A DNA stretch of 49,442 nt. Origin: a virus (Duplodnaviria; Heunggongvirae; Uroviricota; Caudoviricetes). Under the pieces are notes generated by a model. It saw only the letters and a program-made list of their open reading frames with translations, searched no databases and was not told where the DNA came from. Location of the stretch: IMG/VR virus record IMGVR_UViG_2537561691_000009; one strand, 5' to 3'. Numbering within the stretch: the first letter of the stretch is position 1; every line of letters starts with the position of its first letter. Made by a program: the position numbers and the translations under genes. Below, piece after piece: positions 6,421 through 20,672 of this stretch.

Positions 6421-6472
6421 TGCTTAATAGTCTCCTATGCGCATCGCGTTAGGCAATCCCTACTCTCGATGT

Positions 6473-6494: not shown

Positions 6495-6544
6495 TTGCAT
6501 TAGGCTAAGCCTAATATTGTTGCGTGTTTTTTGGAGTTCATTCG

Positions 6545-6868
6545 ATGAAAAAAGATAACTATTCATTCAAACGAGCTTGTGCTGTTGTCGGTGGGCAATC
6601 AGCAATGGCTAGGCTTTTAGGTGTATCTCCTCCAAGCGTAAATCAATGGATCAAAGGTGTACGTCAGTTGCCTGCTGAGAGATGTCCTGCGATTGAACGA
6701 GCAACAAAAGGTGGTGTCCTGTGTGAAGAACTTCGTCCTGATGTTGATTGGACATACTTACGACGCTCGTCATGTTATTCGCAGAATATGTCGATGAAGC
6801 AACCAAATGACGAAAACGATCATACCCGAAGCATCAAGAGGCAAATGATTCATGAAAATCAAACATGA
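6545..6868 (+). CDS. Cro-like HTH protein (YdaS-like)
   Basis: ORF divergent from repressor; HTH segment SAMARLLGVSPPSVNQWIKG; start taken at MKKDNY. Confidence 0.7.
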   Translation: MKKDNYSFKRACAVVGGQSAMARLLGVSPPSVNQWIKGVRQLPAERCPAIERATKGGVLCEELRPDVDWTYLRRSSCYSQNMSMKQPNDENDHTRSIKRQMIHENQT

Positions 6869-7277
6869 GCACATCCGCATGGCGATGAATGCTTGGGCAT
6901 ACCCTGATGGTGAGAAAGTTCCTGCAGCTGAAATAGCCCGGACTTATTTCGAACTGGGGATGACGTTCCCTGAACTGTACGACGACAGCCATCCGGAAGC
7001 CCTGGCCCGTAATACACAGAAAATTTTCCGTTGGCTGGATAAAGACACCCCTGATGCTGTTGAAAAAATTCAGGCTCTGTTACCGGCGATCGAAAAGGCA
7101 ATGCCGCCTCTGCTGGTGGCCCGTATGCGCAGTCACAGCTCTGAGTATTACCGGGAGATTGTCGAACGGCGGGATCGGCTGGTGAAGGATGTCGACGATT
7201 TTGTTGCGTCAGCGGTTGTTTTGTATGACCAGATGAATCGCGGCGGCCCGGCAGGGAATGCTGTGGTGATGCACTAA
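6852..7277 (+). CDS. YdaT-like protein (toxin-like partner of the Cro/YdaS-like gene)
   Basis: 141-aa ORF overlapping the upstream gene end; position and size match the Rac-type ydaS-ydaT pair. Confidence 0.65.
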   Translation: MKIKHEHIRMAMNAWAYPDGEKVPAAEIARTYFELGMTFPELYDDSHPEALARNTQKIFRWLDKDTPDAVEKIQALLPAIEKAMPPLLVARMRSHSSEYYREIVERRDRLVKDVDDFVASAVVLYDQMNRGGPAGNAVVMH

Positions 7278-7284
7278 AAGCACG

Positions 7285-8262
7285 GTGTTCGGGGGTTTTA
7301 TGAGCAGCAAGCTTCATGGTCTTGTCTGGGAAGGGTGCGCCTTCACCGGCATGATCTTATCCAGGGTGGCGGTTATGGCCCGTCTTGCAGACTACAGCAA
7401 TGACGAGGGCGTGTCATGGCCTGCCATTGAAACTATCCGGCGTCAGATCGGTGCAAGAAGTGAATCCACAGTGAAATCGGCTATTGCAGAACTGGCGAAA
7501 GAGGGCTGGCTGACGAAGGAAGAGCGTAAGGTCGGTGGGCGTAATGTAAGCAATATCTATCGACTTAATGTGGAAAAACTCGAAGCAGCTGCGGCGGCGG
7601 CGCGTGAGTCATATAAACCGAAAAGAAAAATTAGCCCGGCAAAAAATGACCCGTTAACAGTTGACCCGTCAAATATTGACCCCTCAACGGTTGACCCGTC
7701 AAATTTTGATGGATCAACTGTTGATAAAAAACTGCCGATTAGGGGGGCGATGATTGACCCCGATCCGTCAGTATTAAAACCTGATCCGTCAGATAAAAGA
7801 TCTTCTTGTCCGGACGCTTCGCAACCGGACCCGCAGACGGCTGAACAGGATTTTTTAACCCGACACCCTGACGCGGTTGTGTTCAGTGCGAAAAAACGCC
7901 AGTGGGGAAGTCAGGAAGATTTGGTGTGCGCACAGTGGATCTGGGGACGAATCGTGAGTCTTTACGAGCAGGCGGCCAGCTATGATGGCGAGATCACTAG
8001 ACCGAAAGAACCCAACTGGACAGCATGGGCCAATGACGTTCGCACAATGCGGATGCTGGATGGCAGAACTCACAGACAAATTTGTGAAATGTTTGGGCGT
8101 CTCCAGCGGGATTCGTTCTGGGTAAAAAACATCATGAGTCCGGCAAAACTCCGGGAAAAATGGGATGAACTGGTTATCCGCCTGGGGCGTTCGCCTGCGC
8201 AGCGTTGCGTGAATCACATTTCTGAACCGGACACTGAAATTCCGCCGGGCTTCAGGGGGTAA
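7285..8262 (+). CDS. Putative replication initiation protein (N-terminal HTH, Asp/Pro-rich repeat linker)
   Basis: 325-aa ORF after the immunity region; N-terminal wHTH-like segment; DPSxxDPS repeats. Confidence 0.5.
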   Translation: MFGGFMSSKLHGLVWEGCAFTGMILSRVAVMARLADYSNDEGVSWPAIETIRRQIGARSESTVKSAIAELAKEGWLTKEERKVGGRNVSNIYRLNVEKLEAAAAAARESYKPKRKISPAKNDPLTVDPSNIDPSTVDPSNFDGSTVDKKLPIRGAMIDPDPSVLKPDPSDKRSSCPDASQPDPQTAEQDFLTRHPDAVVFSAKKRQWGSQEDLVCAQWIWGRIVSLYEQAASYDGEITRPKEPNWTAWANDVRTMRMLDGRTHRQICEMFGRLQRDSFWVKNIMSPAKLREKWDELVIRLGRSPAQRCVNHISEPDTEIPPGFRG

Positions 8263-8302
8263 GTGTTAATTTCTGGTCATGAGGTAATTTTCAGGAGGGC
8301 TT

Positions 8303-8725
8303 GTGGCAAAAGTTTTTACACAAGAAGAGCGGGAAAAAATTAAAGGGCAGGTTGTTGAACTCGTACGCCAGAGTGGGCGCGAGACGTTACGACAACTGGA
8401 AACTAAAACTGGGGCAACAAGATATCTGATGAGCGTTCTGGCCAGAGAGCTGGTTGCCAGCGGCGATGTATACAACTCCGGCTACGGGTTATTCCCCTCT
8501 GAACAGGCGCGTAAGGACTGGCAAAACGCCCGCAAAAAACTCTCGAGGGCAAAGGTGAAGAAACCTGCTGTGGTTGATCCGGACCTTATCTGGTCATCAC
8601 CTGACGGAGAAATACGTCGCTACGACAGTCGCCTAAACATAATCTGTCGCGAGTGCCGGAAGAGTGAAGCTATGCAGCGTGTACTGGCTTTCTATCAGGG
8701 TAATTTTCAGGAGGCGGTACTGTGA
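8303..8725 (+). CDS. Hypothetical protein
   Basis: 140-aa ORF in replication/nin region. Confidence 0.5.
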   Translation: MAKVFTQEEREKIKGQVVELVRQSGRETLRQLETKTGATRYLMSVLARELVASGDVYNSGYGLFPSEQARKDWQNARKKLSRAKVKKPAVVDPDLIWSSPDGEIRRYDSRLNIICRECRKSEAMQRVLAFYQGNFQEAVL

Positions 8726-8782
8726 GTGAAATTAGCTATCAGGCTTCAATTACCGCTGGCATTCGCATCAAAGGAGAGGAGC

Positions 8783-9139
8783 ATGGAAATAAAACCAGAG
8801 GATGAGTTAAGCAATATCGTTTTATTTCCGGTAAAAGAGGATGACCCTCGTAATCAGGTTAATTTTCTTTATGAGCCATCGGAAAGACCATATTGTCATC
8901 ACGCCTCTGTCCGGGTTGACGAAAAAGAGCGTCAGGTCCGCTGTAAAATCTGCGGTGCAGTTGTGGAGCCATTTGACTGGATGCTCTCTGTGGCGAAAAG
9001 AGAAACCAGACTGGCAGATGATGTAAGGCTCTTGCGTCAAGAGGAGCGGGAAAGGCGAAAAAATATAGAAAAGCTAATTCAGATTGAGCGTAACGCGAAA
9101 GCGCGGATACGCAGGGCGACAAAATCCAGAACTGAATAA
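8783..9139 (+). CDS. Hypothetical protein with CxxC...CxxC zinc-ribbon-like motif
   Basis: Start placed at MEIKPEDE behind aaaggagaggagc SD; CHH...CKICG cysteines. Confidence 0.5.
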   Translation: MEIKPEDELSNIVLFPVKEDDPRNQVNFLYEPSERPYCHHASVRVDEKERQVRCKICGAVVEPFDWMLSVAKRETRLADDVRLLRQEERERRKNIEKLIQIERNAKARIRRATKSRTE

Positions 9140-9232
9140 TTAAATTTAGCTCTGTTAAAAATTTAATCCTTAACCGGAGGGATTTCTGCACCCTCAGAAC
9201 ATCAGGAGGCCGCCCGAAAGGGCGGTAGTTAA

Positions 9233-9415
9233 ATGCGAAAGTTTAAAATAATTATTGAAACGGGAATAGCCGGTGGAGATTTCGAGGATGAATTCGAAGT
9301 GGATGATGATGCGACGCCTGATGAAATACATGACGAAGCAAAAGATATTTTCTTTAACTACTGCAATTACTCATATCACGAAATAAAAGACGAAGAGGAA
9401 GAACAAAATGGCTGA
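9233..9415 (+). CDS. Small highly acidic protein, 60 aa
   Basis: About one third D/E residues; overlapping start with next ORF (ATGGCTGA). Confidence 0.5.
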   Translation: MRKFKIIIETGIAGGDFEDEFEVDDDATPDEIHDEAKDIFFNYCNYSYHEIKDEEEEQNG

Positions 9416-9584
9416 TTTTGGTTCAACTAAATACAACGTCAGTTTTGAAGAATGGCATGAACTGTTAATGGACTATGCAGAGTTACGTGGTGGCAGTGCT
9501 GCTGATGCTGAAGCATGGCGGGATGATTATGAAGCAGGAAAAACTCCGGTCGAAGCATATTGTGATGAGTGGGGCGATGAATGA
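9408..9584 (+). CDS. Small acidic protein, 58 aa (MADFGSTKYNVSFEEWHELLMDYAELRGG...)
   Basis: Hand-translated, below track threshold; translationally coupled to flanking ORFs via ATGA-type overlaps. Confidence 0.45.
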   Translation: MADFGSTKYNVSFEEWHELLMDYAELRGGSAADAEAWRDDYEAGKTPVEAYCDEWGDE

Positions 9585-9838
9585 GCGAGGTTAATTATCA
9601 GGAAGGGCATGAAACGGCGGGGCAAGCAAAAACAGTGGCATGGCGATATCGCTACGTGAAAAAAAAGGCGTTACGGACTTTCAGGGGAAGTAGTGGTCTG
9701 GTGACTGGAAATATGTACCGAAAAAAGAGGATTGTAACGACAGGCCGAACTATGAAATTCAGGCCTTATTCACTGCCCCGCCAGTCCCGGTTACATCAGA
9801 AGAACTGGTTAAAGCTGTGCACTTTTATGAACAACTAA
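9581..9838 (+). CDS. Hypothetical basic protein
   Basis: 85-aa ORF with start overlapping the previous stop. Confidence 0.35.
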   Translation: MSEVNYQEGHETAGQAKTVAWRYRYVKKKALRTFRGSSGLVTGNMYRKKRIVTTGRTMKFRPYSLPRQSRLHQKNWLKLCTFMNN

Positions 9839-10067
9839 AACGCGAAAATCCACCAGCATCCGGAAACCTGATTACAGATTCCCAGATAAGGCAATGAGCT
9901 ACCTGGCGCAGAACGGGCTGATAAGTATGGGGAATGTTTTACGATGAATATTTAGACTAAAGAGTTTGTAACGCTATGTAAGTGATTTTTTCTGGTTTAG
10001 ATATTTATATATCCGGCCAAATTGAGGTGTGTTTAAATGTAATTGCACATTGATTGTAGGAGGAATA

Positions 10068-10247
10068 ATGAAAAACGCATTGCAGTTTTTGTTTGTTGCG
10101 TTCTGGTTGTTCGTATCATGTATGCCCATCATCTTCACAGCAAGGTATATGGAAAAAGTTGATGTTTTGATATTAATATTTGGATATATAAATGCCCTTT
10201 TTTTAGGGGTGTTCATGGCGGTCATGTGCATTGAATACTGGCGGTAA
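10068..10247 (+). CDS. Small hydrophobic membrane protein, 59 aa, two predicted TM segments
   Basis: Strong SD (taggagga) 5 nt upstream of ATG; hydrophobic sequence; AT-rich upstream region. Confidence 0.5.
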   Translation: MKNALQFLFVAFWLFVSCMPIIFTARYMEKVDVLILIFGYINALFLGVFMAVMCIEYWR

Positions 10248-10379
10248 ATACAGCGAACGCCATTGGTTTAGTTGGATATTTACTGTGCCGGACAAAAACG
10301 GTTTGCGGGGAAATCTTAGTTAAGTAGAATGACTGCGGGTGCTTGAGGCTATCTGTCTCAGGCATGAACACCAAAAGGC

Positions 10380-10460
10380 AGATAGAGAAAAGCCCCAGTT
10401 AACATTACGCGTCCTGCAAGACGCTTAACATTAATCTGAGGCCATATCTATGCTCTACAC
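10380..10460 (-). ncRNA. sok: Putative Sok-like antisense RNA region (approximate)
   Basis: Inferred from hok/sok locus architecture (antisense RNA overlapping mok start); boundaries not determinable from sequence alone. Confidence 0.3.
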
Positions 10461-10662
10461 ACGTAGGTTAGCCTCTTACGTGCCGAAAGGCAAGGAGAAG
10501 CAGGCTATGAAGCAGCAAAAGGCGATGCTAATCGCCCTGATCGTCATCTGTTTAACCGTCATAGTGACGGCACTGGTAACGAGGAAAGACCTCTGCGAGG
10601 TACGAATCCGAACCGGCCAGACGGAGGTCGCTGTCTTCACAGCTTACGAACCTGAGGAGTAA
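10450..10662 (+). CDS. mok: Mok (modulator of killing) overlapping reading frame
   Basis: 70-aa ORF in frame with and extending upstream of hok. Confidence 0.55.
   Translation: MLYTRRLASYVPKGKEKQAMKQQKAMLIALIVICLTVIVTALVTRKDLCEVRIRTGQTEVAVFTAYEPEE
10507..10662 (+). CDS. hok: Hok/Gef family type I toxin, 51 aa
   Basis: MKQQKAMLIALIVICLTVIVTALVTRKDLCEVRIRTGQTEVAVFTAYEPEE has Hok-family TM helix and conserved C-terminal motif; 5' leader resembles hok mRNA leaders. Confidence 0.85.
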   Translation: MKQQKAMLIALIVICLTVIVTALVTRKDLCEVRIRTGQTEVAVFTAYEPEE

Positions 10663-10730
10663 GAGACCAGGCGGGGGAGAATCCCTCGCCACCTCTGATG
10701 TGTCAGGCATCCTCAACGCACCCGCACTTA

Positions 10731-10756
10731 ACCCGCTTCGGCGGGTTTTGTTTTTT
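10731..10756 (+). terminator. Rho-independent terminator after hok (cccgc-ttcg-gcggg + T-run)
   Basis: GC hairpin followed by ttttgtttttt. Confidence 0.55.
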
Positions 10757-10828
10757 CCTGGCATTCTGGTTTACAATTCGCACGTCAGCCTGAACACCTG
10801 ACACCTGCTGCGCCAGCAGAGAAAACAG

Positions 10829-11101
10829 ATGGCGCACAAAACCAAATTTCACAATTCTGATACCGACCTTGCCATCCGGCATGAGCGGCGTTCACACGCA
10901 TTTAAAACCGACTGGTACCAACACCCACCATGTACTGAAGAACAGGCCGAATGGCTGATTCATAACTACCGCAGACGTGGATATGAGTTTAGGAAAGCCC
11001 TCACCCTCGATTATCGTCACTGGATAATCTACGTCAGACTCCCTTATTCCGAACGCCCACCGCGTCCGTCCCGCACATTCCAGCAACGGATCTGGAGGTA
11101 A
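10829..11101 (+). CDS. Hypothetical protein
   Basis: 90-aa ORF upstream of DUF968-like gene. Confidence 0.45.
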   Translation: MAHKTKFHNSDTDLAIRHERRSHAFKTDWYQHPPCTEEQAEWLIHNYRRRGYEFRKALTLDYRHWIIYVRLPYSERPPRPSRTFQQRIWR

Positions 11102-11102
11102 C

Positions 11103-12161
11103 GTGCGGGTATTACTTCGATCTGTTCCGGTACCGGAACTTGGGCTGGTGGTCCTTAAGCCTGGTCGTGAATCCATGCAGGTATTCCGCAGCGGTCGTGT
11201 ACTGGTGGAGCCGGAACCGAAAAGCATGCGCGGTCTGCCGTCCGGAGTCGTTCCTGCCGTTCGCCAGCCATTGGCGGAGGATAAATCACTACTGCCATTT
11301 TTCAGCGATGAGCGGGTGATTCGTGCTGCTGGCGGTGCTGGTGCGCTGTCTGACTGGCTGTTACGCCACGTTAAATCCTGCCAGTGGCCTCATGGTGACT
11401 ATCATCACAGTGAAATCGTCATACATCGTTACGGTACCGGCGCGATGGTGTTGTGCTGGCACTGCGACAACCAGCTGCGTGACCAGACCTCCGAATCACT
11501 CGGGCAACTTGCTCATCAAAACCTGTCAGCATGGATGATTGACGTCATACGCCATGCAGTGAATGGCACGCAGGAGCGGGAATTATCGCTGGCTGAATTG
11601 TGCTGCTGGGCTTCTGTAAATGATGTAGTGGATGCCATGACCGAAAATATGGCGCGTCGAATCCTGAAGCTTCCGGGTGAAAAAATCCGCTCAGTATACC
11701 GCGAGAGCGACATCGTACCGGGAGAGCAGACCGCCATCAGCATACTGAAGCAGCGCACAAAAAATATTGCGCCGTTGCCTCACGCCCACCAGCAACAGAA
11801 TCCACCACAGGAAAAGACGGTGGTCAGCATTGCCGTTGATCCGGAGTCACCGGCTCAGTATCTCCAGCGCCAGAAACCACAACGGGAAGAGATGCCTGTA
11901 TACACGCGCTGGGTAAAAACGCAGAAATGCATGACGTGTGGCAATCAGGCAGATGATCCGCATCACATCATTGGTCATGGACTGGGAGGGATGGGAACAA
12001 AGGCTGATGATTTGTTTGTTATTCCGCTGTGCCGTAAATGCCATAGCGAACTACACGCCGGGGTAAAAGATTTTGAAGAAAAACACGGCAGCCAGCTGTT
12101 GTTGCTGATTCGTTTTTTAATGCACGCGAGAAATTCGGGTGTCCTGAAGTGGAAAGCATGA
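11103..12161 (+). CDS. DUF968/YdfU-like protein with C-terminal Cys/His-rich motif
   Basis: 352-aa ORF; C-terminal CMTCG...HHIIGHG...CRKCH motif; directly upstream of rusA. Confidence 0.65.
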   Translation: MRVLLRSVPVPELGLVVLKPGRESMQVFRSGRVLVEPEPKSMRGLPSGVVPAVRQPLAEDKSLLPFFSDERVIRAAGGAGALSDWLLRHVKSCQWPHGDYHHSEIVIHRYGTGAMVLCWHCDNQLRDQTSESLGQLAHQNLSAWMIDVIRHAVNGTQERELSLAELCCWASVNDVVDAMTENMARRILKLPGEKIRSVYRESDIVPGEQTAISILKQRTKNIAPLPHAHQQQNPPQEKTVVSIAVDPESPAQYLQRQKPQREEMPVYTRWVKTQKCMTCGNQADDPHHIIGHGLGGMGTKADDLFVIPLCRKCHSELHAGVKDFEEKHGSQLLLLIRFLMHARNSGVLKWKA

Positions 12162-12527
12162 ATGACTGAACGCATAGAATTTGTTTTGCCTTACCCGCCA
12201 ACGGTGAACACTTACTGGCGACGTCGTGGCAGCACATATTTTGTATCAAAAGCCGGTGAGCGTTATCGCCGTGATGTGGCGCTTATTGTTCGCCAGCAGC
12301 GGCTGAAATTAAACCTGTCCGGAAGGCTGGCGATAAAGATTATTGCAGAGCCACCGGATAAACGTCGTCGTGACCTGGACAATATCCTGAAAGCACCACT
12401 GGATGCGCTGACGCATGCCGGACTTCTCATAGACGACGAGCAGTTTGATGAAATCAATATTGTGCGCGGTCAGCGCGTTCCTGGGGGGCGGCTGGGCGTG
12501 AAGATTTACAAAATTGAGAGTGAGTGA
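12162..12527 (+). CDS. rusA: Holliday junction resolvase RusA
   Basis: 121-aa ORF with RusA-like sequence (LPYPPTVNTYWR..., acidic catalytic residues); nin-region position. Confidence 0.85.
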   Translation: MTERIEFVLPYPPTVNTYWRRRGSTYFVSKAGERYRRDVALIVRQQRLKLNLSGRLAIKIIAEPPDKRRRDLDNILKAPLDALTHAGLLIDDEQFDEINIVRGQRVPGGRLGVKIYKIESE

Positions 12528-12535
12528 TCGTAAAT

Positions 12536-13081
12536 ATGATATATCCGGAAATTACAGGCAAAAGCGGCGAGCATTTACGTCTAAAAACGCTGGAAGCCGT
12601 CTGGATCCAGGGGAAATTACGGATGTGGGGGCGTTGGTCGTACATAGGTGGTGGCAAACCAGGAAATATGTTCAATCAGTTGCTGGCATCCAAAACACTT
12701 ACAAAAACTGCGATCAATGAAGCTCTGCGCAGAATAAAAAAATCAGGGATTGATAAAACTGAGCTGGAAGCGTTTTTGCGTGAGATGATCAACAGCAAGC
12801 AAAAGAGCGGGCTGGCTTATTGTACTGATGCCGAGGCGTTATGTATCGATCGGGTAATTAGTAAAGTGTTGGCAGAGCATCCGGGATTGATTTGTATCCT
12901 CCGACAAAGATATGAAGGGCTGGGAATGAGCAAGCTGAAAATGGCAGAACAGTTAAAAAAGAATCACCCTGACTGGAGCCTGAAAACTTGTAGAAATCGC
13001 ATTGATGTTTGGTTGGCGATGGCTGAAACCATGCTTTTCCTTCCAATGTGCGTGGCACTTCGGTGCTTTTCTGATAACTGA
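12536..13081 (+). CDS. Putative late-gene antiterminator Q
   Basis: About 181 aa directly after rusA; RMWGRWSY motif reminiscent of Q-family antiterminators; position before late/lysis region. Confidence 0.6.
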   Translation: MIYPEITGKSGEHLRLKTLEAVWIQGKLRMWGRWSYIGGGKPGNMFNQLLASKTLTKTAINEALRRIKKSGIDKTELEAFLREMINSKQKSGLAYCTDAEALCIDRVISKVLAEHPGLICILRQRYEGLGMSKLKMAEQLKKNHPDWSLKTCRNRIDVWLAMAETMLFLPMCVALRCFSDN

Positions 13082-13109
13082 TGATAGAAGTGCATCAGCT
13101 ATCAATCTT

Positions 13110-13138
13110 GTTGACGTTCATCAAGGTCTGGACAATAC
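13110..13138 (+). promoter_or_regulatory. Candidate sigma70 promoter downstream of Q (ttgacg-17 nt-aatact), possible pR'-like late promoter
   Basis: -35/-10-like hexamers read by eye with 17-bp spacing; untested. Confidence 0.25.
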
Positions 13139-13170
13139 TTACGTTAAGTTCCAACATATGGAAGATAAGA

Positions 13171-14361
13171 ATGATATTTACACGATTGAGATTTATCAAT
13201 TTGTACGCTTTTGAGGATGCAGAGCTTAACCTGTCCTATCCAAGGAAACCTGTAAACATGCCTCTTGATGGGGAGTTTTTGGCTGGACGGCCTAAATTTT
13301 ACTATAAAAAAGTCTGTATCATAACGGGGGGAAATGCTTCAGGCAAGACGTCACTAGGGCGAATTCTTTGTGGAATTCAGGTGTTTCTAAGAACCAAAGA
13401 GTTGCGGAGTAATCTGCGAGTGAATAATAAAAATAATGATGCTTCGTTTGAAGTAGACTTTGCTACGGAGGAACATTTTCATCATCGTTTGTATGTACGC
13501 TTTGCTACCAGTGAAGGCGGAGCGCACATAATCAAAGAAATTAAATATGGTTTTGTTCAAATAGCATTAAATGATTCTTGCTATAAAACCACAGAAAAAC
13601 TGAATCAACTCTTTTCTGGAAGGGCCCCAGGAGATACAGAATATTTTTTTCAGGAACTAGCTACTGATAGCGAACCAGTTGTATTGGAGTTTTTCAAGCA
13701 ACTTAAGTTTTTTGGTGGATGGTACTATTTGTTGTCTGAAACTAAAGAAAGTACCACTGCAATTTCAGGAATGAATAAAAATATTCTTGAAAGGATAATT
13801 CGCACTTTCGATTCAAGTATTATAGGAGTTACCGAGATGCTGGAGTCTGAAAGTGACGGGGATGAAAATAAATCATCTGCGGTTTATCTGATTAAATTTA
13901 AAAACTCTGATTCTCTTGTCGTTACCAGTAAAGGTGAAATAATTAACTCAGACCGTCTTTCTCGAGGAACATACGAGGCAGTGACGGTAGCGCATTTTAT
14001 AAGCGCTATTATCTCTGATTGTGAAAGACTAGGTAAGCAATCTCTAATACCATCAATGACTTATTTTCTTGACGAGAAATTGGCTTATACACATTCAGAG
14101 TTAGAGCGTATGATTGTGGCGCTGATTATATCTAATTTGAAAGAAAATACTCAGTTTTTCTATACAACGCATAACATGGATATTTTTGAGTTGGATCTGC
14201 CTGTTCACTCGTTCATTTTTATTAAAAAAACGAAAGACTATTCGGAGTTTGTTGAAGCAAATTCAGTTGTTAAAAAAAATGACCGTAGCATGCGAAACGC
14301 TGTTGAGAGAGATGTCTTTGGTGTCTTACCTGACACATCATTAGTATCGGAGCTACTCTGA
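13171..14361 (+). CDS. P-loop ABC-type ATPase (AAA_21/AAA_15-like; AbiLi/RloA/AriA-like)
   Basis: Walker A GGNASGKTS near N-terminus; later YFLDE (Walker B-like) and TTHN (H-loop-like); start placed at MIFTRLRFINLY; AT-rich codon usage. Confidence 0.75.
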   Translation: MIFTRLRFINLYAFEDAELNLSYPRKPVNMPLDGEFLAGRPKFYYKKVCIITGGNASGKTSLGRILCGIQVFLRTKELRSNLRVNNKNNDASFEVDFATEEHFHHRLYVRFATSEGGAHIIKEIKYGFVQIALNDSCYKTTEKLNQLFSGRAPGDTEYFFQELATDSEPVVLEFFKQLKFFGGWYYLLSETKESTTAISGMNKNILERIIRTFDSSIIGVTEMLESESDGDENKSSAVYLIKFKNSDSLVVTSKGEIINSDRLSRGTYEAVTVAHFISAIISDCERLGKQSLIPSMTYFLDEKLAYTHSELERMIVALIISNLKENTQFFYTTHNMDIFELDLPVHSFIFIKKTKDYSEFVEANSVVKKNDRSMRNAVERDVFGVLPDTSLVSELL

Positions 14362-14894
14362 TGGCGGGGTTGTCTAAAATAAGAATAATTTTTGTCGAAG
14401 GTGAAACAGAAAACTCTCTTTTTCAGAAGATGAAACAACAGAGAGTTATTGATGCCAAATCAATTGTAAAAAGAAACTTTTGGCAAGAGAGCATAAGAAA
14501 TTATGCGATTACTATTCCGAAGGGAAGTGATATACTAATTGTCTTTGATAGTGATGAAGTGGAGCAATCTGCAAGATTCATTGAAAATGTAAAGTTCCTT
14601 AAAAACAGAGGGCATAAAGTTTATCTTTTGCAGCAGAAAAGAAATTTTGAGGAGGAGTTGGCCTGGTGTTGCGGAATTCCTGTAAAAAAACTAATTGCTG
14701 GGTTCTGTGCAAAAAAAACATCGGGTATAAATGATTTCAAGAGAGATTTTATTGCTTGTAACAATCAACTTTCAAAGTTACTGAAAATGGGCATGCAGGA
14801 AACTAAGTGGTTTACAAGAGATTTACATACTGTATTGGAGCCTGTTGCAAGTTTTAAGTCATCTTTTTCTAAACATTTCAGGTTAACAAGATGA
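14361..14894 (+). CDS. Small Toprim-like protein (RloB/AbiLii/OLD-Toprim-like), 177 aa
   Basis: N-terminal IIFVEGETE plus downstream VFDSDE (acidic E...DxD Toprim-like pattern); start ATG overlaps ATPase stop (TGATG). Confidence 0.65.
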   Translation: MAGLSKIRIIFVEGETENSLFQKMKQQRVIDAKSIVKRNFWQESIRNYAITIPKGSDILIVFDSDEVEQSARFIENVKFLKNRGHKVYLLQQKRNFEEELAWCCGIPVKKLIAGFCAKKTSGINDFKRDFIACNNQLSKLLKMGMQETKWFTRDLHTVLEPVASFKSSFSKHFRLTR

Positions 14895-15027
14895 TTTATT
14901 TTCTTTTTTGTTCAGTTGATTGTTTTTGTTTGTAAAATGTCTTGATTTTTTGCCAATAAACTGTTTCAATCCAGCTACGCTTCGCAAAGCTATACCGCGA
15001 GGCGAATAGCAGACATGGACACCTGAA

Positions 15028-15054
15028 AGAACCCGCTTTATGCGGGTTTTTTTA
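15028..15054 (+). terminator. Rho-independent terminator after the ATPase/Toprim cassette
   Basis: aacccgc-ttta-tgcgggtttttttat hairpin with T-run. Confidence 0.7.
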
Positions 15055-15176
15055 TGCCTGAAAAACGGCACAGAACATTAAACGCGCTGGTAGTTGTGAA
15101 TACTGGTCTTTCAGCTTGCTGGCTTTTTCGACAAGAGGTATTGGTATGTCACGTTAACCGGAAAAGGGAAAAAGGC

Positions 15177-15374
15177 ATGCTAAAACAGCAGGATATGACC
15201 GAAACCGCCAGAGTGGTGTTTAATGAATTAAGCGTCACCGAACCGGCGACCGTCGGGGAAATTGCGCAGAATACTTACCTTTCACGCGAACGCTGCCAGT
15301 TAATACTGACTCAGCTTGTTATGGCGGGTCTGGCAGATTATCAGTTCGGTTGTTACAGACGCCTTCCGCAGTGA
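15177..15374 (+). CDS. Small putative wHTH protein, 65 aa
   Basis: Start at MLKQQD with aaggga SD; upstream of methyltransferase. Confidence 0.45.
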   Translation: MLKQQDMTETARVVFNELSVTEPATVGEIAQNTYLSRERCQLILTQLVMAGLADYQFGCYRRLPQ

Positions 15375-15524
15375 AGGCTTTTTAATTTGTGGTAATGGGC
15401 GGCTGGTGGGGGTTAGCGGCACCTGCCAGCCATCTGCTCATGCGTTGGGGTCACAAGCAAACCTCAGGCCCATCTGCTTTGCGCAAAAGCGGTATGAGCC
15501 TATCAGAGAAGTGCTTATTGATCT

Positions 15525-16574
15525 ATGGCTAATACTGTAAAAATATCCAGTTGTGAGTTAATCAACGCTGATTGCCTGGAATTTATCCAGACCTTACCGG
15601 AAAACTCTGTCGATCTTATAGTCACAGACCCGCCATACTTTAAAGTGAAACCCGAGGGCTGGGATAACCAGTGGAAGGGCGACGATGATTACCTGAAGTG
15701 GCTGGACCAGTGTCTGGCGCAGTTCTGGCGGGTGCTGAAACCTGTCGGAAGTCTTTACCTGTTCTGTGGTCATCGCCTGGCATCTGATATCGAAATCATG
15801 ATGCGTGAACGCTTCAGTGTGCTGAACCATATTATCTGGGCGAAGCCGTCCGGACGCTGGAACGGATGCAACAAGGAAAGCCTGCGGGCGTATTCCCCCG
15901 CCACAGAGCGCATTCTGTTCGCGGAACATTATCAGGGGCCGTATCGTCCGAAAGATGCCGGGTATGCGGCGAAGGGCAGTGCACTGAAACAGCATGTGAT
16001 GGCCCCGCTGATTTCTTACTTTCGTGATGCGCGCGCGGCCCTGGGGATAACGGCAAAACAGATTGCAGATGCCACAGGAAAGAAAAACATGGTGTCGCAC
16101 TGGTTCAGTGCCAGTCAGTGGCAGCTACCGAACGAAAGCGATTATCTGAAATTACAGTCGCTGTTTGCCCGGGTGGCAGAAGAGAAACATCAGCGCGGTG
16201 AACTGGAAAAGCCCCACCACCAGCTGGTGGATACGTATACGTCACTGAACCGGCAGTATGTGGAGCTGCAGAGTGAATATAAGCATCTGCGGCGGTATTT
16301 TGGTGTGACGGCGCAGGTGCCGTACACGGATGTGTGGACACATAAACCGGTGCAGTTCTATCCCGGGAAACATCCGTGCGAAAAACCGGCAGAAATGCTG
16401 CAGCAGATAATCAGCGCAAGCAGTCGTCCGGGAGACCTGGTTGCAGATTTTTTTATGGGCTCAGGTTCAACGGTAAAAGCTGCACTGGCGCTCGGGCGTC
16501 GTGCGATTGGCGTTGAACTGGAGACCGGACGTTTTGAGCAGACAGTCAGGGAAGTTCAGGATTTAATCGTTTGA
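15525..16574 (+). CDS. DNA N6-adenine methyltransferase (DPPY motif)
   Basis: 349-aa ORF with VTDPPYF catalytic motif near N-terminus and SAM-binding-like region near C-terminus; no adjacent restriction endonuclease evident. Confidence 0.85.
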   Translation: MANTVKISSCELINADCLEFIQTLPENSVDLIVTDPPYFKVKPEGWDNQWKGDDDYLKWLDQCLAQFWRVLKPVGSLYLFCGHRLASDIEIMMRERFSVLNHIIWAKPSGRWNGCNKESLRAYSPATERILFAEHYQGPYRPKDAGYAAKGSALKQHVMAPLISYFRDARAALGITAKQIADATGKKNMVSHWFSASQWQLPNESDYLKLQSLFARVAEEKHQRGELEKPHHQLVDTYTSLNRQYVELQSEYKHLRRYFGVTAQVPYTDVWTHKPVQFYPGKHPCEKPAEMLQQIISASSRPGDLVADFFMGSGSTVKAALALGRRAIGVELETGRFEQTVREVQDLIV

Positions 16575-16623
16575 AACGGATGAGATTGCAGAATTAATTA
16601 CGCACCATTATTATTCTGCTCCC

Positions 16624-16699
16624 GGCCCTTTAGCTCAGTGGTGAGAGCGAGCGACTCATAATCGCCAGGTCGCTGGTTCAAATCCAGCAAGGGCCACCA
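16624..16699 (+). tRNA. tRNA with CAU anticodon (Ile2/ileZ-like, or Met)
   Basis: Cloverleaf parsed by hand: acceptor ggccctt/aagggcc, anticodon loop ctCATaa, T-loop ttcaaat, 3' CCA. Confidence 0.8.
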
Positions 16700-16706
16700 T
16701 CACATA

Positions 16707-16783
16707 CCGCCATTAGCTCATCAGGAAAGAGCGCCAGCCTTCGAAGCTGGTTGCGCGGGGTTCAAGTCCCCGATGGCGGTCCA
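16707..16783 (+). tRNA. tRNA-Arg (anticodon UCG)
   Basis: Acceptor ccgccat/atggcgg, anticodon loop ctTCGaa, T-loop ttcaagt, 3' CCA. Confidence 0.8.
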
Positions 16784-16796
16784 TTATCTGCATCAT

Positions 16797-16873
16797 GCGT
16801 TGTTAGCTCAGCCGGACAGAGCAATTGCCTTCTAAGCAATCGGTCACTGGTTCGAATCCAGTACAACGCGCCA
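16797..16873 (+). tRNA. tRNA-Arg (anticodon UCU)
   Basis: Acceptor gcgttgt/acaacgc, anticodon stem attgc/gcaat, loop ctTCTaa, T-loop ttcgaat, 3' CCA. Confidence 0.8.
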
Positions 16874-17111
16874 CACTTATTTTCCCTGGCTCGCTTTTGT
16901 GGGCCTTTTTTTTAAATGTCTCACAATTTAGGCGGTTGACTGTTGTCTGGTTTGCGGGGAGTTTGTTAAAAGAAACTGGCATGGTGAATCCCCCTGTGCG
17001 GAGGGGCAATCAGCGAGTAGGTATATGGGATAATCGCGGATTCAGGTGCTGGTACTGAATTCACCGGGAGGCACCCGGCACCATGCAATGGCACATAGCG
17101 CCACTCTCCAG

Positions 17112-17133
17112 CCCCTCTCCGGAGGGGCTGTTT
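17112..17133 (+). terminator. Possible terminator hairpin (cccctc-tccg-gagggg + T-rich tail)
   Basis: GC stem-loop followed by ctgtttat. Confidence 0.35.
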
Positions 17134-17164
17134 ATATTGATTTTGTCAGATGTGAGTAAACTGC

Positions 17165-17500
17165 TTATGGACTTTGTTGTTTTAGCCCATAAGGACATAT
17201 TTGCAGAGTGCAACGGTTATTAAAGCATTCATTCAATACGTTATCTGTATTTGTAGGGCATTCCTGGCTGTTTTTGATTAAATTCCAGAATGTTTTATTG
17301 AATGGTACTACGTTGTAAATGGTTACAGGTAGCACTTTGTTATTGAGCATGATGCCTGTGTGAGTCAGTGTAAATATACTTTCAGGAGGTAAGAAAGCAT
17401 CCGATTGATACCAGATTATTAATTTTATTTTACTCCATATGACTGAAAAAGATATTCCGCATGATGGCTGGATAACTGTATCAATCACAATCCACTTCAT
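17165..17500 (-). CDS. Hypothetical Cys-containing protein in AT-rich island (occupies the position stx genes take in Stx phages)
   Basis: 111-aa ORF with aagga SD 6 nt upstream of ATG; AT-rich; opposite strand to late operon. Confidence 0.5.
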
Positions 17501-17745
17501 TTAGTTTCCTTGTTTATGCCTTGCTGGTGATGTTCTGAAAAGTATAAATGATATTTTTGATTGTAAACCATAGAGCAGAATTATTTTTCTGATGTTGTTT
17601 ATTGTTTATTTAAATGCAGGGTGGTTTATATCTCGTCTTGTAGTTTATCCATGCATATCTGCTTGATGATGAGGTTTTTATTTAAGGTATGGTTTTGTGT
17701 TTTTTCTGTATTACATGTCAGGTATTTTAAAGAATCATTTTTCAG

Positions 17746-19614
17746 ATGGTGGAAAGAACCATGGCATTTAAACACTATGATGTTGTCAGGGCGGCGTCGC
17801 CGTCAGATCTTGCGGAAAAGCTGACACATAAACTGAAAGAGGGCTGGCAGCCGTTTGGTAGTCCGGTGGCCATAACCCCTTATACCCTGATGCAGGCGAT
17901 TGCAGCAGAAGGTGATGTGGTCGTCAGTGGTGCAACTGAGCCGGAGTGGTACTACGTCATCGTACTGGCCGGGCAATCCAATGCCATGGCTTACGGTGAA
18001 GGGCTTCCGCTTCCGGATTCTTACGATGCGCCCCACCCACGCATTAAGCAACTGGCCCGTCGCAACACAGTGACTCCCGGTGGTAAAGCATGCGCATTTA
18101 ACGACATCATTCCGGCAGACCACTGCCTGCATGATGTTCAGGATATGAGCGCACTGAATCATCCGAAGGCAGACCTGAGCAAAGGGCAGTACGGCTGTGT
18201 CGGCCAGGGCTTACATATTGCCAAAAAACTGCTTCCGTATATCCCGAATAACGCGGGGATCCTGCTGGTACCATGCTGTCGTGGTGGTTCGGCATTCACC
18301 CAGGGCGCGGAGGGGACATTCAGTGCGGACACGGGGGCCAGCCAGGATTCGGCACGCTGGGGTGTGGGTAAACCGTTATATCAGGACCTGATCGCACGCA
18401 CCAAAGCGGCATTACAGAAGAACCCGAAAAATGTGTTGCTGGCGGTGTGCTGGATGCAGGGCGAATTTGACATGAGCGCTGCCACCTACGCACAGCAACC
18501 GGACCTGTTCACGGCCATGCTGAAGCAGTTCCGTACTGACCTTTCCGGATTTAACGCGCAGTGCCATGGCGGCAGTGCTGCAGTTGTACCGTGGATTTGT
18601 GGCGACACGACGTATTACTGGAAAAACACATACGGCACACAGTATGACTCCGTCTACGGCGCATACAAAAACAGGGAGAGCGACAACGTTTTCTTTGTGC
18701 CGTTCATGACCGACGGTAACGGCAACAACACGCCCACCAACTTACCGGCAGAAGACCCGGATATTGCTGATGCAGGTTATTACGGCGCGCAATCCCGTAG
18801 TAATGGTAATTGGGTATCGTCAAACCGCCCGACACATTTCAGTTCATGGGCGCGCAGGAGCATTATTCCGGATCGTATGGCAACCGCTATTCTGAACGCA
18901 GCCGGGCGCACCTCAGCCTTCATCAGTGGTAAGGCACCGGAAATCAAACCCTCGCCCGGCGTCGACACGCCATCGGGGCCGTCTGAAGATGCATCCGTAC
19001 GCACAATCTCCCTGTTGCCGACAGCCGGAGAGGCTGCTGCGCAGGGCTGGACCATTAAGGACGGCGGAATTCAGTTGTCGGGTGGTGTATTTAAGATCAC
19101 CAAGCAGAGCAATAAAACTTGGTCCCTGATGCATCCGGTGGATGACGCAGTCTCCCTGCTGACACGGGGTGGCAGACTGAGCTGTAAGTTTCGACTGTCA
19201 GGCGCACTGACCAACAACCAGTTCGGTCTGGGAATTTATCTGTATACCGATGTAGCGTTACCTGACGTCGTGGCGATGACCGGGACTGGTAACCCGTTCC
19301 TGATGTCGTTCTTCACCCAGACCACAGACGGCAAACTGAATCTGATGCATCACAGGAAAGCAGGAAACACAAAGTTGGGCGAGTTCGGGAATTACAGTAA
19401 CGACTGGCAGACGCTGGAGCTGGTGTTCACCGCCGGCAGTGCCACGGTTACTCCGAAACTGAATGGAGTGGCTGGCCCGGCATTCCAGGTCATAAAAGAC
19501 AGTCTGACACTGGGGCTGAATGCGCTGACGCTGACGGATATTACCAAAAATGCAGCGTATGGCGTTGAGATAGAAAGTCTGGTGCTGGAGATAAATGCAC
19601 CAGCATCATCATAA
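17746..19614 (+). CDS. nanS-p: Prophage sialate O-acetylesterase-like protein (NanS-p-like; SGNH/DUF303-type with GQSN motif)
   Basis: 622-aa ORF with GQSNA esterase motif; same position downstream of the tRNA genes as nanS-p in Stx-type lambdoid phages. Confidence 0.75.
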   Translation: MVERTMAFKHYDVVRAASPSDLAEKLTHKLKEGWQPFGSPVAITPYTLMQAIAAEGDVVVSGATEPEWYYVIVLAGQSNAMAYGEGLPLPDSYDAPHPRIKQLARRNTVTPGGKACAFNDIIPADHCLHDVQDMSALNHPKADLSKGQYGCVGQGLHIAKKLLPYIPNNAGILLVPCCRGGSAFTQGAEGTFSADTGASQDSARWGVGKPLYQDLIARTKAALQKNPKNVLLAVCWMQGEFDMSAATYAQQPDLFTAMLKQFRTDLSGFNAQCHGGSAAVVPWICGDTTYYWKNTYGTQYDSVYGAYKNRESDNVFFVPFMTDGNGNNTPTNLPAEDPDIADAGYYGAQSRSNGNWVSSNRPTHFSSWARRSIIPDRMATAILNAAGRTSAFISGKAPEIKPSPGVDTPSGPSEDASVRTISLLPTAGEAAAQGWTIKDGGIQLSGGVFKITKQSNKTWSLMHPVDDAVSLLTRGGRLSCKFRLSGALTNNQFGLGIYLYTDVALPDVVAMTGTGNPFLMSFFTQTTDGKLNLMHHRKAGNTKLGEFGNYSNDWQTLELVFTAGSATVTPKLNGVAGPAFQVIKDSLTLGLNALTLTDITKNAAYGVEIESLVLEINAPASS

Positions 19615-19699
19615 AAAGTGAGCCAGTCAAATGGAAGGTATCGTTAAACTCACCGGTAGTGTCAGTGGGTCGTCTGAGATGCCTGCATGAGTTATCAGA

Positions 19700-19729
19700 G
19701 CCATCAGTACTTAACTGGTGGCTTTTTTT
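19700..19729 (+). terminator. Rho-independent terminator-like hairpin after nanS-p (gccatcag-loop-ctggtggc + T7)
   Basis: Stem with one G-U pair followed by ttttttt. Confidence 0.5.
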
Positions 19730-19764
19730 ATTGTTGTCAGCTTCCGGATAACGGGAGACGGGGT

Positions 19765-19980
19765 ATGTACCAGATGGAAAAAATCACAACAGGTGTGTCA
19801 TACACCACGTCAGCGGTGGGAACGGGCTACTGGTTCCTGCAGTTGCTGGACAGGGTTTCCCCGTCTCAGTGGGCGGCAATAGGCGTGCTGGGGAGTCTGC
19901 TGTTTGGGCTGCTGACATATCTGACTAACCTGTATTTCAAAATCAGAGAGGACCGTCGTAAGGCTGCACGGGGAGAGTAA
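19765..19980 (+). CDS. S: Holin (S-like, dual-start MYQMEK motif)
   Basis: 71 aa with two closely spaced Met starts, TM segments, charged C-terminus; SD gggagacgggg; first gene of lysis cassette. Confidence 0.85.
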
Positions 19981-19984
19981 TTCA

Positions 19985-20329
19985 ATGACTCAAAACTATG
20001 AACTGATTGTGAAAGGGATCCGCAATTTTGAGAATAAAGTTACGGTAACTTTAGCGTTACGGGACAAAAAACGCTTTGACGGTGAAATTTTTGACCTGGA
20101 CATCTCGCTGGACCGTGTTGAAGGTGCCGCGCTGGAGTTTTATGAGGCAGCAGCCAGAAGGAGCATCAGACAGGTCTTCCTGGATGTTGCTGCCGGGTTA
20201 TGTGAAGGGGATGAGCAGTCGCCGGAAAAGCGCCCCGTAATTTTAGAGGCGCAGGATGTGTTGATAACCTACAGAGGAAAACTACCGGGAATAATTACGG
20301 GTTCTCTGAAGAGTCCGCCGAAATGGTAA
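19985..20329 (+). CDS. Hypothetical protein between holin and endolysin
   Basis: 114-aa ORF starting 5 nt after holin stop. Confidence 0.5.
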   Translation: MTQNYELIVKGIRNFENKVTVTLALRDKKRFDGEIFDLDISLDRVEGAALEFYEAAARRSIRQVFLDVAAGLCEGDEQSPEKRPVILEAQDVLITYRGKLPGIITGSLKSPPKW

Positions 20330-20567
20330 TTTTACCAGCATATTTTTCATCCAGTAATACAGCAAGCCGCCTGAAAGAGTCTTGTTGTTCCTGAGACCAT
20401 TTGGGATTGCATGATTCAAACTGGATTGATGCCAGCGTTGATTGCATCTGTTCCCTTGGAATTGAGAATGCCAGATATGAGAAGGCGACGGTAAGGGTAT
20501 TCACGTCTTCCCGAAGCCTGGAAATGCTGTCGAGCAACTCCTGTAGAGAAATGGTGTTATTGTCCAT
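20295..20567 (-). CDS. Hypothetical protein (convergent with preceding ORF)
   Basis: 90-aa ORF; plausible protein-like composition. Confidence 0.4.
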   Translation of the reverse strand: MDNNTISLQELLDSISRLREDVNTLTVAFSYLAFSIPREQMQSTLASIQFESCNPKWSQEQQDSFRRLAVLLDEKYAGKITISADSSENP

Positions 20568-20672
20568 AAATAATCCTCATGATTGTATTTACCTGTTAGC
20601 AGCCTGAGGCAACAGGCTGGAACTGATAAACATATCCAGGGCTCAGAAACCGATAAATCCTGATAAATATCC

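What the first reader, a model, noticed from the sequence alone, without database searches (positions are those of the whole stretch)
13081..15054. AT-rich two-gene cassette downstream of Q: P-loop ATPase coupled to a mini-Toprim protein, a candidate anti-phage defence module
Seen in sequence: ORF1 (13171..14361, about 396 aa) has an N-terminal Walker A (GGNASGKTS), a later hydrophobic-DE (YFLDE) and a TTHN H-loop-like motif, the layout of ABC/SMC-type AAA_15/AAA_21 ATPases. ORF2 (14361..14894, 177 aa) starts with IIFVEGETE and has VFDSDE further on, the acidic E...DxD pattern of Toprim nucleases and close to the N-terminal motif I recall for RloB/AbiLii-type proteins. The ORF1 stop and ORF2 start overlap (TGATG), the cassette is visibly more AT-rich than the flanking phage genes, and it ends at a strong terminator (15028..15054). 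Established knowledge: ATPase plus Toprim pairs make up abortive-infection and defence systems (AbiL/RloAB, PARIS AriAB, OLD/Gabija families), and the Q-to-lysis interval of lambdoid prophages is a recognised moron and defence hotspot. Inference: a prophage-carried defence module, possibly a compact variant because the Toprim partner is only 177 aa.
Basis: partly seen in the sequence, partly recalled or inferred. Interest (0 to 1): 0.85.

Follow-up and report, generated by a model that had tools for sequence, protein, structure and literature searches.

The report
Prophage ATPase plus mini-Toprim nuclease cassette
A rare, AT-rich two-gene insert just after the Q gene of an E. coli lambdoid prophage encodes an ABC-type ATPase and a small Toprim nuclease, a distant untested relative of the AbiL/PARIS/OLD anti-phage systems, so it is a good but unsurprising defence candidate.

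Summary
ORF1 (13171..14361, 396 aa) and ORF2 (14361..14894, 177 aa) overlap by one base. They lie in a 36% GC segment, the most AT-rich stretch of a 51% GC window.

ORF1 is a complete ABC ATPase. Its best profile match is PADLOC AbiLi (E 9.6e-26), and its predicted fold matches PtuA, Rad50, SMC and OLD at E about 1e-9.

ORF2 belongs to a family of about 170-aa proteins (626 clusters at 50% identity). The family keeps E13/E17, D63xD65, E97/E99 and K127 almost without exception. ORF2's own profile matches are weak. A relative 38% identical to it passes Pfam's threshold for the OLD-like Toprim domain.

The two genes are adjacent in every locus examined. They move as a unit between known prophage variable sites, including the P2 tin/old hotspot.

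Rousset et al. 2022 already listed this family as untested candidate "system 90" (AAA_15/AAA_21 | RloB). It is therefore a new member of a known kind. Defence activity, trigger and nuclease target remain inferred.

The terminator is real but belongs to the phage backbone.

The parts
12950..14933 (+). Mosaic segment that carries the cassette. It replaces 117 bp of a cassette-less relative and includes the 3' end of the Q-like gene. GC is 0.363.
   Evidence: blastn against E. coli 97-3250 (L002): homology stops at 12949 and resumes at 14934. GC.
12536..13081 (+). Q-like antiterminator gene (DUF1133 / Phage_antitermQ). It is the upstream neighbour, and its last ~44 codons belong to the swapped segment.
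   Evidence: Pfam DUF1133 at 2e-98 and Phage_antitermQ at 1e-7; PHROG 753 'anti-termination protein Q-like'. RefSeq coordinates.
13111..13139 (+). Candidate sigma-70 promoter (TTGACG-17-AATACT) between the Q stop and the ORF1 start. Weak evidence only.
   Evidence: Consensus scan: 9 of 12 positions match. The number of such sites in the region is no higher than in shuffles (7 found, 7.7 expected).
13171..14361 (+). ORF1, 396 aa: AbiLi-like ABC (SMC/Rad50-type) ATPase, the proposed sensor and regulator. Motifs: Walker A G53-N55-S57-G58-K59-T60, signature R262-S264-G266-T267, Walker B D301-E302, H-loop H334.
   Evidence: AbiLi 9.6e-26; AAA_15 1.3e-6, SMC_N; invariant motifs in 25 sequences; AF2 pLDDT 84; Foldseek PtuA, Rad50, SMC, OLD at 1e-9 to 1e-7.
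14361..14894 (+). ORF2, 177 aa: stand-alone OLD-like mini-Toprim, the proposed metal-dependent nuclease effector. Conserved residues: E13, G14, E17, D63, D65, N95, E97, E99, K127.
   Evidence: AF2 pLDDT 89.8, alternating beta/alpha; 626 clusters; invariant acidic residues; hhalign against the P2 Old Toprim region, P 2.6e-4; 38%-identical relative passes the Pfam threshold for OLD-like_TOPRIM.
15024..15054 (+). Intrinsic terminator: GC stem 15032-15036/15042-15046 followed by a U7 tract. It belongs to the phage backbone but would also end cassette transcripts.
   Evidence: strand folding gives -20.3 kcal/mol, z -6.85. It lies in DNA shared with cassette-less prophages.

Best explanation
The cassette is a horizontally acquired two-gene anti-phage (abortive-infection type) module carried by a lambdoid prophage. 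It consists of an ABC ATPase (ORF1) translationally coupled to a small OLD-like Toprim nuclease (ORF2).

Shown:
- ORF1 has every catalytic ABC motif and an SMC/Rad50/PtuA/OLD-like fold.
- ORF2 has the Toprim acidic set (Glu after strand 1, DxD after strand 3, a further ExE after strand 4) and an invariant Lys. These are conserved across hundreds of clusters.
- The two genes are always adjacent, diverge in parallel, and move as a unit between prophage variable sites.

Inferred by analogy with PARIS (AriA/AriB), P2 Old, Gabija and the toxin-antitoxin-like ATPase/Toprim pairs:
- The ATPase oligomer binds the nuclease and keeps it inactive.
- A cue from an infecting phage is sensed through the variable insert of the ATPase (residues ~90-255). 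ATP binding or hydrolysis then releases or activates the nuclease.
- The nuclease uses two-metal catalysis to cut a nucleic acid, either tRNA (as AriB and P2 Old do) or DNA (as GajA does). This stops translation or replication and aborts the infection, protecting the lysogen population and the prophage.

The trigger and the substrate are unknown.
For: Molecular identity:
- ORF1: PADLOC AbiLi 9.6e-26, mad3 2.6e-11, AriA 1.8e-7.
- ORF1: Walker A, signature, Walker B and H-loop are invariant in 25 homologues down to 35% identity.
- ORF1: Foldseek gives PtuA/Septu, retron PtuA, Rad50, SMC head and Ts OLD at E 2e-9 to 7e-8.
- ORF2: E13, G14, D65, E97 and K127 are invariant, and E17, D63, N95 and E99 are at least 90% conserved, in 74 representatives with a mean identity of 27%.
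- ORF2: the AF2 model (pLDDT 89.8) places these residues directly after strands 1, 3 and 4.
- ORF2: the only recurrent profile matches are Toprim families. PADLOC AbiLii matches 39 of 74 members, and Pfam OLD-like_TOPRIM, RloB, Toprim, Toprim_2 and DUF3226 match a few each.
- ORF2: hhalign against the Toprim region of the P2 Old family gives P 2.6e-4 and aligns the EGxTE and DxD motifs. Controls gave 0.014-0.71.
- ORF2: a relative 38% identical to it (E 3e-38) scores 24.2 bits on Pfam OLD-like_TOPRIM, above the 23.2-bit cut-off.

Linkage:
- An ATPase gene lies directly upstream in all loci with upstream DNA, including Clostridiales and Acinetobacter members.
- Identity of the two proteins falls together: 100/100, 72/63, 54/53, 45/37, 36/34 %.

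Defence context:
- The pair is the only cargo between the portal gene and gpA of P2-like prophages. That is the tin/old locus of P2, shown to be a defence hotspot in PMC9122126.
- Other alleles sit between the attachment site and the integrase, in the nin region, or between tail and regulatory genes.
- In this window the cassette is an insertion absent from most related prophages. It is present in 7 of 5426 complete E. coli genomes.

Literature:
- AbiL, PARIS, OLD, Gabija and MADS3-4 form one ATPase+Toprim defence group (PMC11464382, PMC12409363, PMC13064643).
- ATPase/TOPRIM_OLD pairs behave as toxin-antitoxin pairs (PMC10440598).
Against: - No experiment exists for this family. No paper cites its RefSeq accessions.
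- Rousset et al. only listed the family as a candidate.
- ORF2's own scores are below every curated threshold: RloB 16.2 bits against 31.5, OLD-like_TOPRIM 14.6 against 23.2, and AbiLii E 1.7e-3 over 23 of 170 profile positions.
- A comparable ATPase+Toprim pair, HEC-01, gave no protection when tested (10.1101/2024.01.29.577857).
- Expression in the lysogen is unproven. The only promoter candidate is no better than chance.
Confidence: 0.75

Rival explanations
1. A toxin-antitoxin-like addiction module. The Toprim nuclease is a toxin, the ATPase neutralises it, and the pair mainly stabilises the prophage or mobile element rather than sensing phages.
For: - ATPase/TOPRIM_OLD pairs were validated as toxin-neutraliser pairs in PMC10440598.
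- The genes overlap tightly, the pair occurs on many mobile elements, and one copy is on an Acinetobacter plasmid.
Against: - A fully conserved ATPase active site is costly for a mere antitoxin.
- The pair sits in the same loci as proven defence genes such as P2 old/tin.
- In PARIS, deleting either gene was non-toxic (PMC9122126).
- The two readings are not exclusive.
Confidence: 0.1
2. A phage housekeeping pair for its own DNA or RNA metabolism. One possibility is a RecF/RecR-like recombination mediator (ABC ATPase plus Toprim protein). Another is an RNA-processing Toprim like RNase M5.
For: - ORF1 has weak RecF/SMC_N matches.
- The cassette lies next to RusA and other recombination or replication genes.
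Against: - The cassette is dispensable. It is absent from most related prophages.
- It is found at unrelated positions in unrelated phages.
- ORF2 lacks RecR's helix-hairpin-helix and zinc-finger parts.
- The best profile matches are to defence ATPases, not to RecF.
- The low GC marks it as foreign cargo.
Confidence: 0.05
3. An inert or decaying hitch-hiker with no current function.
For: - It is rare in E. coli: 7 genomes carry this allele and 17 carry any DNA-level relative, out of 5426.
- One database entry looks like a truncated copy (P0019).
Against: - Both reading frames are intact.
- Catalytic residues are invariant across hundreds of clusters and several phyla.
- The 7 E. coli copies are 99.5-100% identical.
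Confidence: 0.03

Closest known systems
AbiL (AbiLi + AbiLii) of Lactococcus lactis, and PADLOC's AbiL models
   Same: - It is a two-gene operon with an ABC ATPase first and a small Toprim/RloB-like protein second.
- ORF1 matches the AbiLi model at 9.6e-26.
- AbiLii is the only defence model that the ORF2 family hits repeatedly, in 39 of 74 members.
   Different: - ORF2's match to AbiLii is marginal: E 1.7e-3, covering only the N-terminal EGxxE stretch.
- The hosts are Proteobacteria and the carriers are prophages, not a lactococcal plasmid.
- I could not obtain the original AbiL sequences for a direct comparison.
- AbiL's own mechanism is unknown (PMC13064643).
Candidate 'system 90' (AAA_15/AAA_21/SMC_N | RloB) in the P2-hotspot table of Rousset et al. 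2022 (PMC9122126, mmc6)
   Same: - It is the same two protein families: 40% identity to ORF1 (E 5e-103) and 38% to ORF2 (E 3e-38).
- It has the same gene order and sizes (399 + 172 aa).
   Different: - It is a different allele, in P2-like phages at the tin/old locus rather than after Q in a lambdoid prophage.
- It was listed with 37 occurrences. It does not appear in the file that holds domain analyses of the tested systems.
PARIS (AriA + AriB; class 4 OLD)
   Same: - It is a split ABC ATPase plus Toprim nuclease, often phage- or satellite-borne.
- It is the likely model for the mechanism: the ATPase sequesters the nuclease, and a trigger releases a tRNA-cutting Toprim (PMC11464382, PMC12409363).
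   Different: - ORF2 has no DUF4435 or AriB match and is about half AriB's size (177 aa against ~35 kDa).
- ORF1 matches AriA only weakly (1.8e-7, partial).
- ORF1's insert is predicted to be beta-rich rather than a coiled coil.
P2 Old and other class 1 OLD nucleases; Gabija GajA (class 2)
   Same: - They use the same two domains and the same acidic Toprim motif layout.
- Relatives of the cassette occupy the very locus where P2 carries old.
- Ts OLD and GajA appear among the fold hits.
   Different: - Old and GajA are single polypeptides, and GajA needs the GajB helicase.
- Here the domains are on two proteins and no helicase gene is adjacent.
MADS Mad3-Mad4 (ATPase + DUF4276 Toprim) and HEC-01 (ATPase + Toprim pair)
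   Same: - Each is an ABC ATPase paired with a small stand-alone Toprim of similar size.
- ORF1 matches mad3 at 2.6e-11.
   Different: - ORF2 does not match mad4 or DUF4276.
- The other MADS genes are absent.
- HEC-01 models are hit only weakly by a few family members, and HEC-01 showed no defence in tests.

Membership tests
ABC ATPase, SMC/Rad50-like defence clade (Pfam AAA_15 / AAA_21) | Walker A GxxxxGK[ST], ABC signature, Walker B hhhhDE and an H-loop histidine | tested here: met
   GGNASGKTS, RLSRGT, YFLDE and YTTHN are present, and they are invariant in 25 homologues.
ABC ATPase, SMC/Rad50-like defence clade (Pfam AAA_15 / AAA_21) | Profile or fold match | tested here: met
   - Pfam AAA_15 scores 28.7 bits, below the 32.1 cut-off.
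- PADLOC AbiLi gives 9.6e-26.
- Foldseek gives probability 1.00 and E about 1e-9 to PtuA, Rad50, SMC and OLD.
Toprim domain (OLD-like) | Conserved Glu after strand 1 and DxD after strand 3 (definition as in PMC12065111) | tested here: met
   - E13 is invariant, and D63 (at least 90%) and D65 (invariant) are conserved in 74 representatives.
- E17, E97, E99 and K127 are also conserved.
- The residues fall directly after strands 8-12, 57-63 and 86-92 of the model.
Toprim domain (OLD-like) | Three-layer alpha/beta fold with sheet order 2-1-3-4 | tested here: inconclusive
   - The AF2 model has the alternating strand/helix order.
- Sheet order could not be read because no coordinates are available.
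- Foldseek found nothing below 1e-3.
Toprim domain (OLD-like) | Match to Pfam OLD-like_TOPRIM at the curated cut-off | tested here: inconclusive
   - ORF2 itself scores 14.6 bits against the 23.2 cut-off.
- A relative 38% identical to it scores 24.2 bits over the whole profile.
- hhalign of the family against the P2 Old Toprim region gives P 2.6e-4.
AbiL | Adjacent AbiLi-type ATPase and AbiLii-type Toprim genes | tested here: inconclusive
   - The architecture is met, and AbiLi matches at 9.6e-26.
- AbiLii gives only 1.7e-3, over 23 of 170 profile positions.
- 39 of 74 family members match AbiLii at 0.01 or better, the best at 2.6e-6.
AbiL | Abortive-infection phenotype against phages | not testable with these tools
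   This needs plaque and infection-dynamics assays.
PARIS (AriAB) | AriB with a DUF4435 Toprim domain | tested here: not met
   No DUF4435 match and no AriB match for ORF2 at E up to 1.
Gabija / class 1 OLD | ATPase and Toprim fused in one protein; for Gabija, an adjacent UvrD-type helicase GajB | tested here: not met
   There are two separate ORFs and no adjacent helicase gene. The neighbours are Q, a small hypothetical gene and a methyltransferase.
RloAB | RloB (PF13707) protein within a type I restriction-modification locus | tested here: not met
   RloB scores 16.2 bits against the 31.5 cut-off. No hsd genes are nearby.
MADS (Mad3/Mad4) | Mad4 (DUF4276) partner and the other MADS genes | tested here: not met
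   ORF1 matches mad3 at 2.6e-11, but ORF2 has no mad4 or DUF4276 match and this is a two-gene unit only.

The most novel reading that the evidence does not exclude
The ~170-aa mini-Toprim proteins and their dedicated ATPases form a separate, uncharacterised branch of the split ATPase/Toprim ('OLD-like') defence systems. This branch would stand beside PARIS, AbiL proper and MADS3-4, with its own trigger and its own nucleic-acid target. No Pfam family covers the Toprim partner at threshold, and it may be the smallest self-contained Toprim effector that an ABC ATPase regulates.
Probability: 0.3. Interest if true: 0.55.

Novelty: new member of a known kind. Interest (0 to 1): 0.35.

Why it matters
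If the cassette is active, it adds a compact, easily cloned ATPase-plus-nuclease pair (1.7 kb) to the OLD/PARIS/AbiL group.

- The group's best-studied members cut tRNA or DNA, but the rules for their triggers are still poorly known.
- A 177-aa effector is a convenient minimal model for how an ABC ATPase restrains and releases a Toprim nuclease.
- The family is widespread (626 clusters at 50% identity) yet unannotated. RefSeq calls the partner 'hypothetical protein', so a functional assignment would improve the annotation of many prophages.
- It would also mark the site just after Q in lambdoid prophages as a cargo site for defence genes.

Tried and rejected
Searches that gave nothing useful:
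- Sequence searches of both proteins and both family profiles against PDB sequences gave nothing relevant. The only 'hits' for ORF2 were AI-designed TIM barrels, which I regard as spurious.
- Foldseek of the ORF2 model against PDB had no match below 1e-3.
- The AlphaFold-database library was not available.
- Megablast against phage genomes found no match. tblastn found only Acinetobacter phage Ab105-3phi and one Acinetobacter plasmid.
- I could not obtain the original lactococcal AbiL sequences, so I could not make a direct AbiLii comparison.

Scans of the region that gave nothing special:
- The promoter scan was no better than shuffled sequence.
- The terminator scan missed the real hairpin, probably because its stem can extend into the U tract. 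Folding confirmed the hairpin.
- The repeat search found no flanking repeats that would indicate a transposon-like insertion.
- Rfam found no RNA family inside the cassette.

Readings considered and rejected:
- The longer ORF1 reading from 13081 is rejected because homologues start at the later Met.
- Membership of PARIS, Gabija, MADS and RloAB is rejected on defining features (see the membership table).
Full report
**What is there.**
- The region holds two same-strand ORFs.
  - ORF1 can be read from 13081, where its ATG overlaps the stop of the upstream Q-like gene, or from 13171. All 24 homologues I aligned begin at the MIFTRL-type N-terminus, and RefSeq also annotates 13171..14361 as 'ATPase AAA', WP_001547733.1. 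ORF1 is therefore 396 aa.
  - ORF2 runs 14361..14894 (177 aa; RefSeq 'hypothetical protein', WP_021538475.1). It starts on the last base of the ORF1 stop (TGATG).
- GC is 0.358 over 13082..14933, against 0.50-0.51 in the flanks and 0.51 for the window. This is the lowest value of any 1.85-kb window.
- The upstream gene is a Q-type antiterminator (DUF1133 at 2e-98; Phage_antitermQ at 1e-7).
- The hairpin with its U7 tract at 15024..15054 is a convincing intrinsic terminator (-20.3 kcal/mol, z -6.85).

**Where the cassette begins and ends.**
- The window is an almost complete lambdoid prophage inserted in ompW. It is 99.8% identical to E. coli EC24 over window 2..43173.
- Many related prophages lack the two genes.
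- Against one of them (strain 97-3250), homology stops at 12949 and resumes at 14934, and 117 bp take the place of 1984 bp.
- The exchanged block therefore includes the last ~44 codons of the Q gene and ends before the terminator. The terminator is backbone DNA.
- Only 7 of 5426 complete E. coli genomes carry this allele, at 99.5-100% identity. Seventeen carry any relative detectable at the DNA level.

**ORF1 is an ABC ATPase of the defence-associated SMC/Rad50-like kind.**
- Walker A (GGNASGKTS), the ABC signature (RLSRGT), Walker B (YFLDE) and the H-loop (YTTHN) are invariant in 25 sequences down to 35% identity.
- Pfam AAA_15 and SMC_N match below threshold.
- PADLOC gives AbiLi 9.6e-26, mad3 2.6e-11 and AriA 1.8e-7.
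- The AlphaFold model (pLDDT 84) matches PtuA of Septu and retrons, Rad50, SMC heads and Thermus OLD, with Foldseek E from 2e-9 to 7e-8.

**ORF2 is a small Toprim protein.** Its own profile scores are weak:
- RloB E 0.012
- OLD-like_TOPRIM E 0.048
- AbiLii E 1.7e-3

The family evidence is much stronger:
- A profile search of 1.84 billion representatives found 626 clusters (388 at E of 1e-10 or better). All but three of the 150 listed are 145-212 aa.
- Across 74 representatives averaging 27% identity, E13, G14, D65, E97 and K127 are invariant. E17, D63, N95 and E99 are at least 90% conserved.
- In the model (pLDDT 89.8) these residues sit directly after strands 1, 3 and 4 of an alternating strand/helix fold. 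That is the Toprim layout as defined in PMC12065111.
- The only profile families hit repeatedly by members are Toprim families.
- hhalign of the family against the Toprim region of the P2 Old family gives P 2.6e-4 and aligns EGxTE and DxD. Control comparisons gave 0.014-0.71.
- A member 38% identical to ORF2 passes Pfam's cut-off for OLD-like_TOPRIM over the whole profile.
- Fold searches were not decisive. Toprim proteins (2i5r, GajA, Bp OLD, RecR, DnaG) appear with the longest alignments and highest identities, but at the same Z as generic Rossmann-like folds.

**The two genes are one unit.**
- In every locus with upstream DNA, an ATPase gene directly precedes the Toprim gene. This includes distant Clostridiales and Acinetobacter members.
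- Identities of the two proteins fall in step.

**The unit sits at several distinct variable sites.**
- After Q, as in this window.
- As the sole cargo between the portal gene and gpA of P2-like prophages. This is the tin/old locus of P2.
- Between the attachment site and the integrase.
- In the nin region.
- Between tail genes and regulatory genes.

These are the places where prophages keep defence genes (PMC9122126).

**Comparison with what is known.**
- The architecture is that of the ATPase+Toprim defence group: P2 Old, Gabija, PARIS, AbiL and MADS3-4 (PMC11464382, PMC12409363, PMC13064643).
- The nearest named system is AbiL, but only the ATPase matches it well.
- PARIS, Gabija, MADS and RloAB each fail on a defining feature (see the membership table).
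- The family is not new to the literature. Rousset et al. 2022 list it as candidate 'system 90, AAA_15/AAA_21/SMC_N | RloB', with 37 occurrences in P2 hotspots. Its proteins are 40% and 38% identical to ORF1 and ORF2.
- I found no sign that it was tested.

**Mechanism.** By analogy, the ATPase holds the nuclease inactive and releases or activates it on sensing infection. The nuclease then cuts tRNA (as AriB and P2 Old do) or DNA (as GajA does), which aborts the infection. This is inference.
- A related ATPase+Toprim pair, HEC-01, gave no protection when tested.
- Expression in the lysogen is unproven.

**Verdict.** This is a credible, untested member of a well-known class, so interest is moderate rather than high.

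Noticed in passing
window 1-49442: The window is almost a whole lambdoid prophage inserted in ompW, running from integrase and excisionase through a RacR-like repressor to the lysis, head and tail genes. It is 99.8% identical to E. coli EC24 up to 43173. The tail-fibre end (about 43174-47675) differs between the two.
   Followed up: partly
window 16624-16873: There are three phage tRNA genes (anticodons CAT, which RefSeq calls Ile; Arg-TCG; Arg-TCT) 1.7 kb downstream of a putative nuclease cassette. Phage tRNAs are known to counter the tRNA-cutting Toprim of PARIS. A cassette-less relative also carries a tRNA cluster (Ile and one Arg) at this position, so the cluster is backbone rather than cassette-linked.
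   Followed up: partly
window 16950-17139: Strong Rfam match to the sRNA STnc100 (132 bits against a 47-bit threshold), just after the tRNA cluster.
   Followed up: no
window 15525-16574: An orphan N6/N4 DNA methyltransferase gene (Pfam 3.6e-45) with no adjacent restriction gene. It is present in cassette-less relatives too.
   Followed up: no
window 17165-17800: A second AT-rich patch (GC 0.33) holds an iraM-like anti-adapter gene on the minus strand. It looks like another piece of foreign cargo in the Q-to-lysis interval.
   Followed up: no
window 12950-13081: The last ~44 codons of the Q-like antiterminator gene travel with the cassette and differ from those of cassette-less relatives. The exchange probably arose by recombination inside Q with another phage. 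I did not assess whether this changes Q specificity.
   Followed up: partly
protein P0019: A 103-aa E. coli protein annotated 'transposase' is 100% identical to a quarter of ORF2. It may be a copy disrupted by an insertion sequence in some strain.
   Followed up: no
L030 1-4516 (Clostridiales metagenome contig): A distant member of the pair lies 2 kb from a Dcm-type cytosine methylase and a Vsr mismatch-repair endonuclease gene. This is a defence-island-like neighbourhood outside prophages.
   Followed up: no
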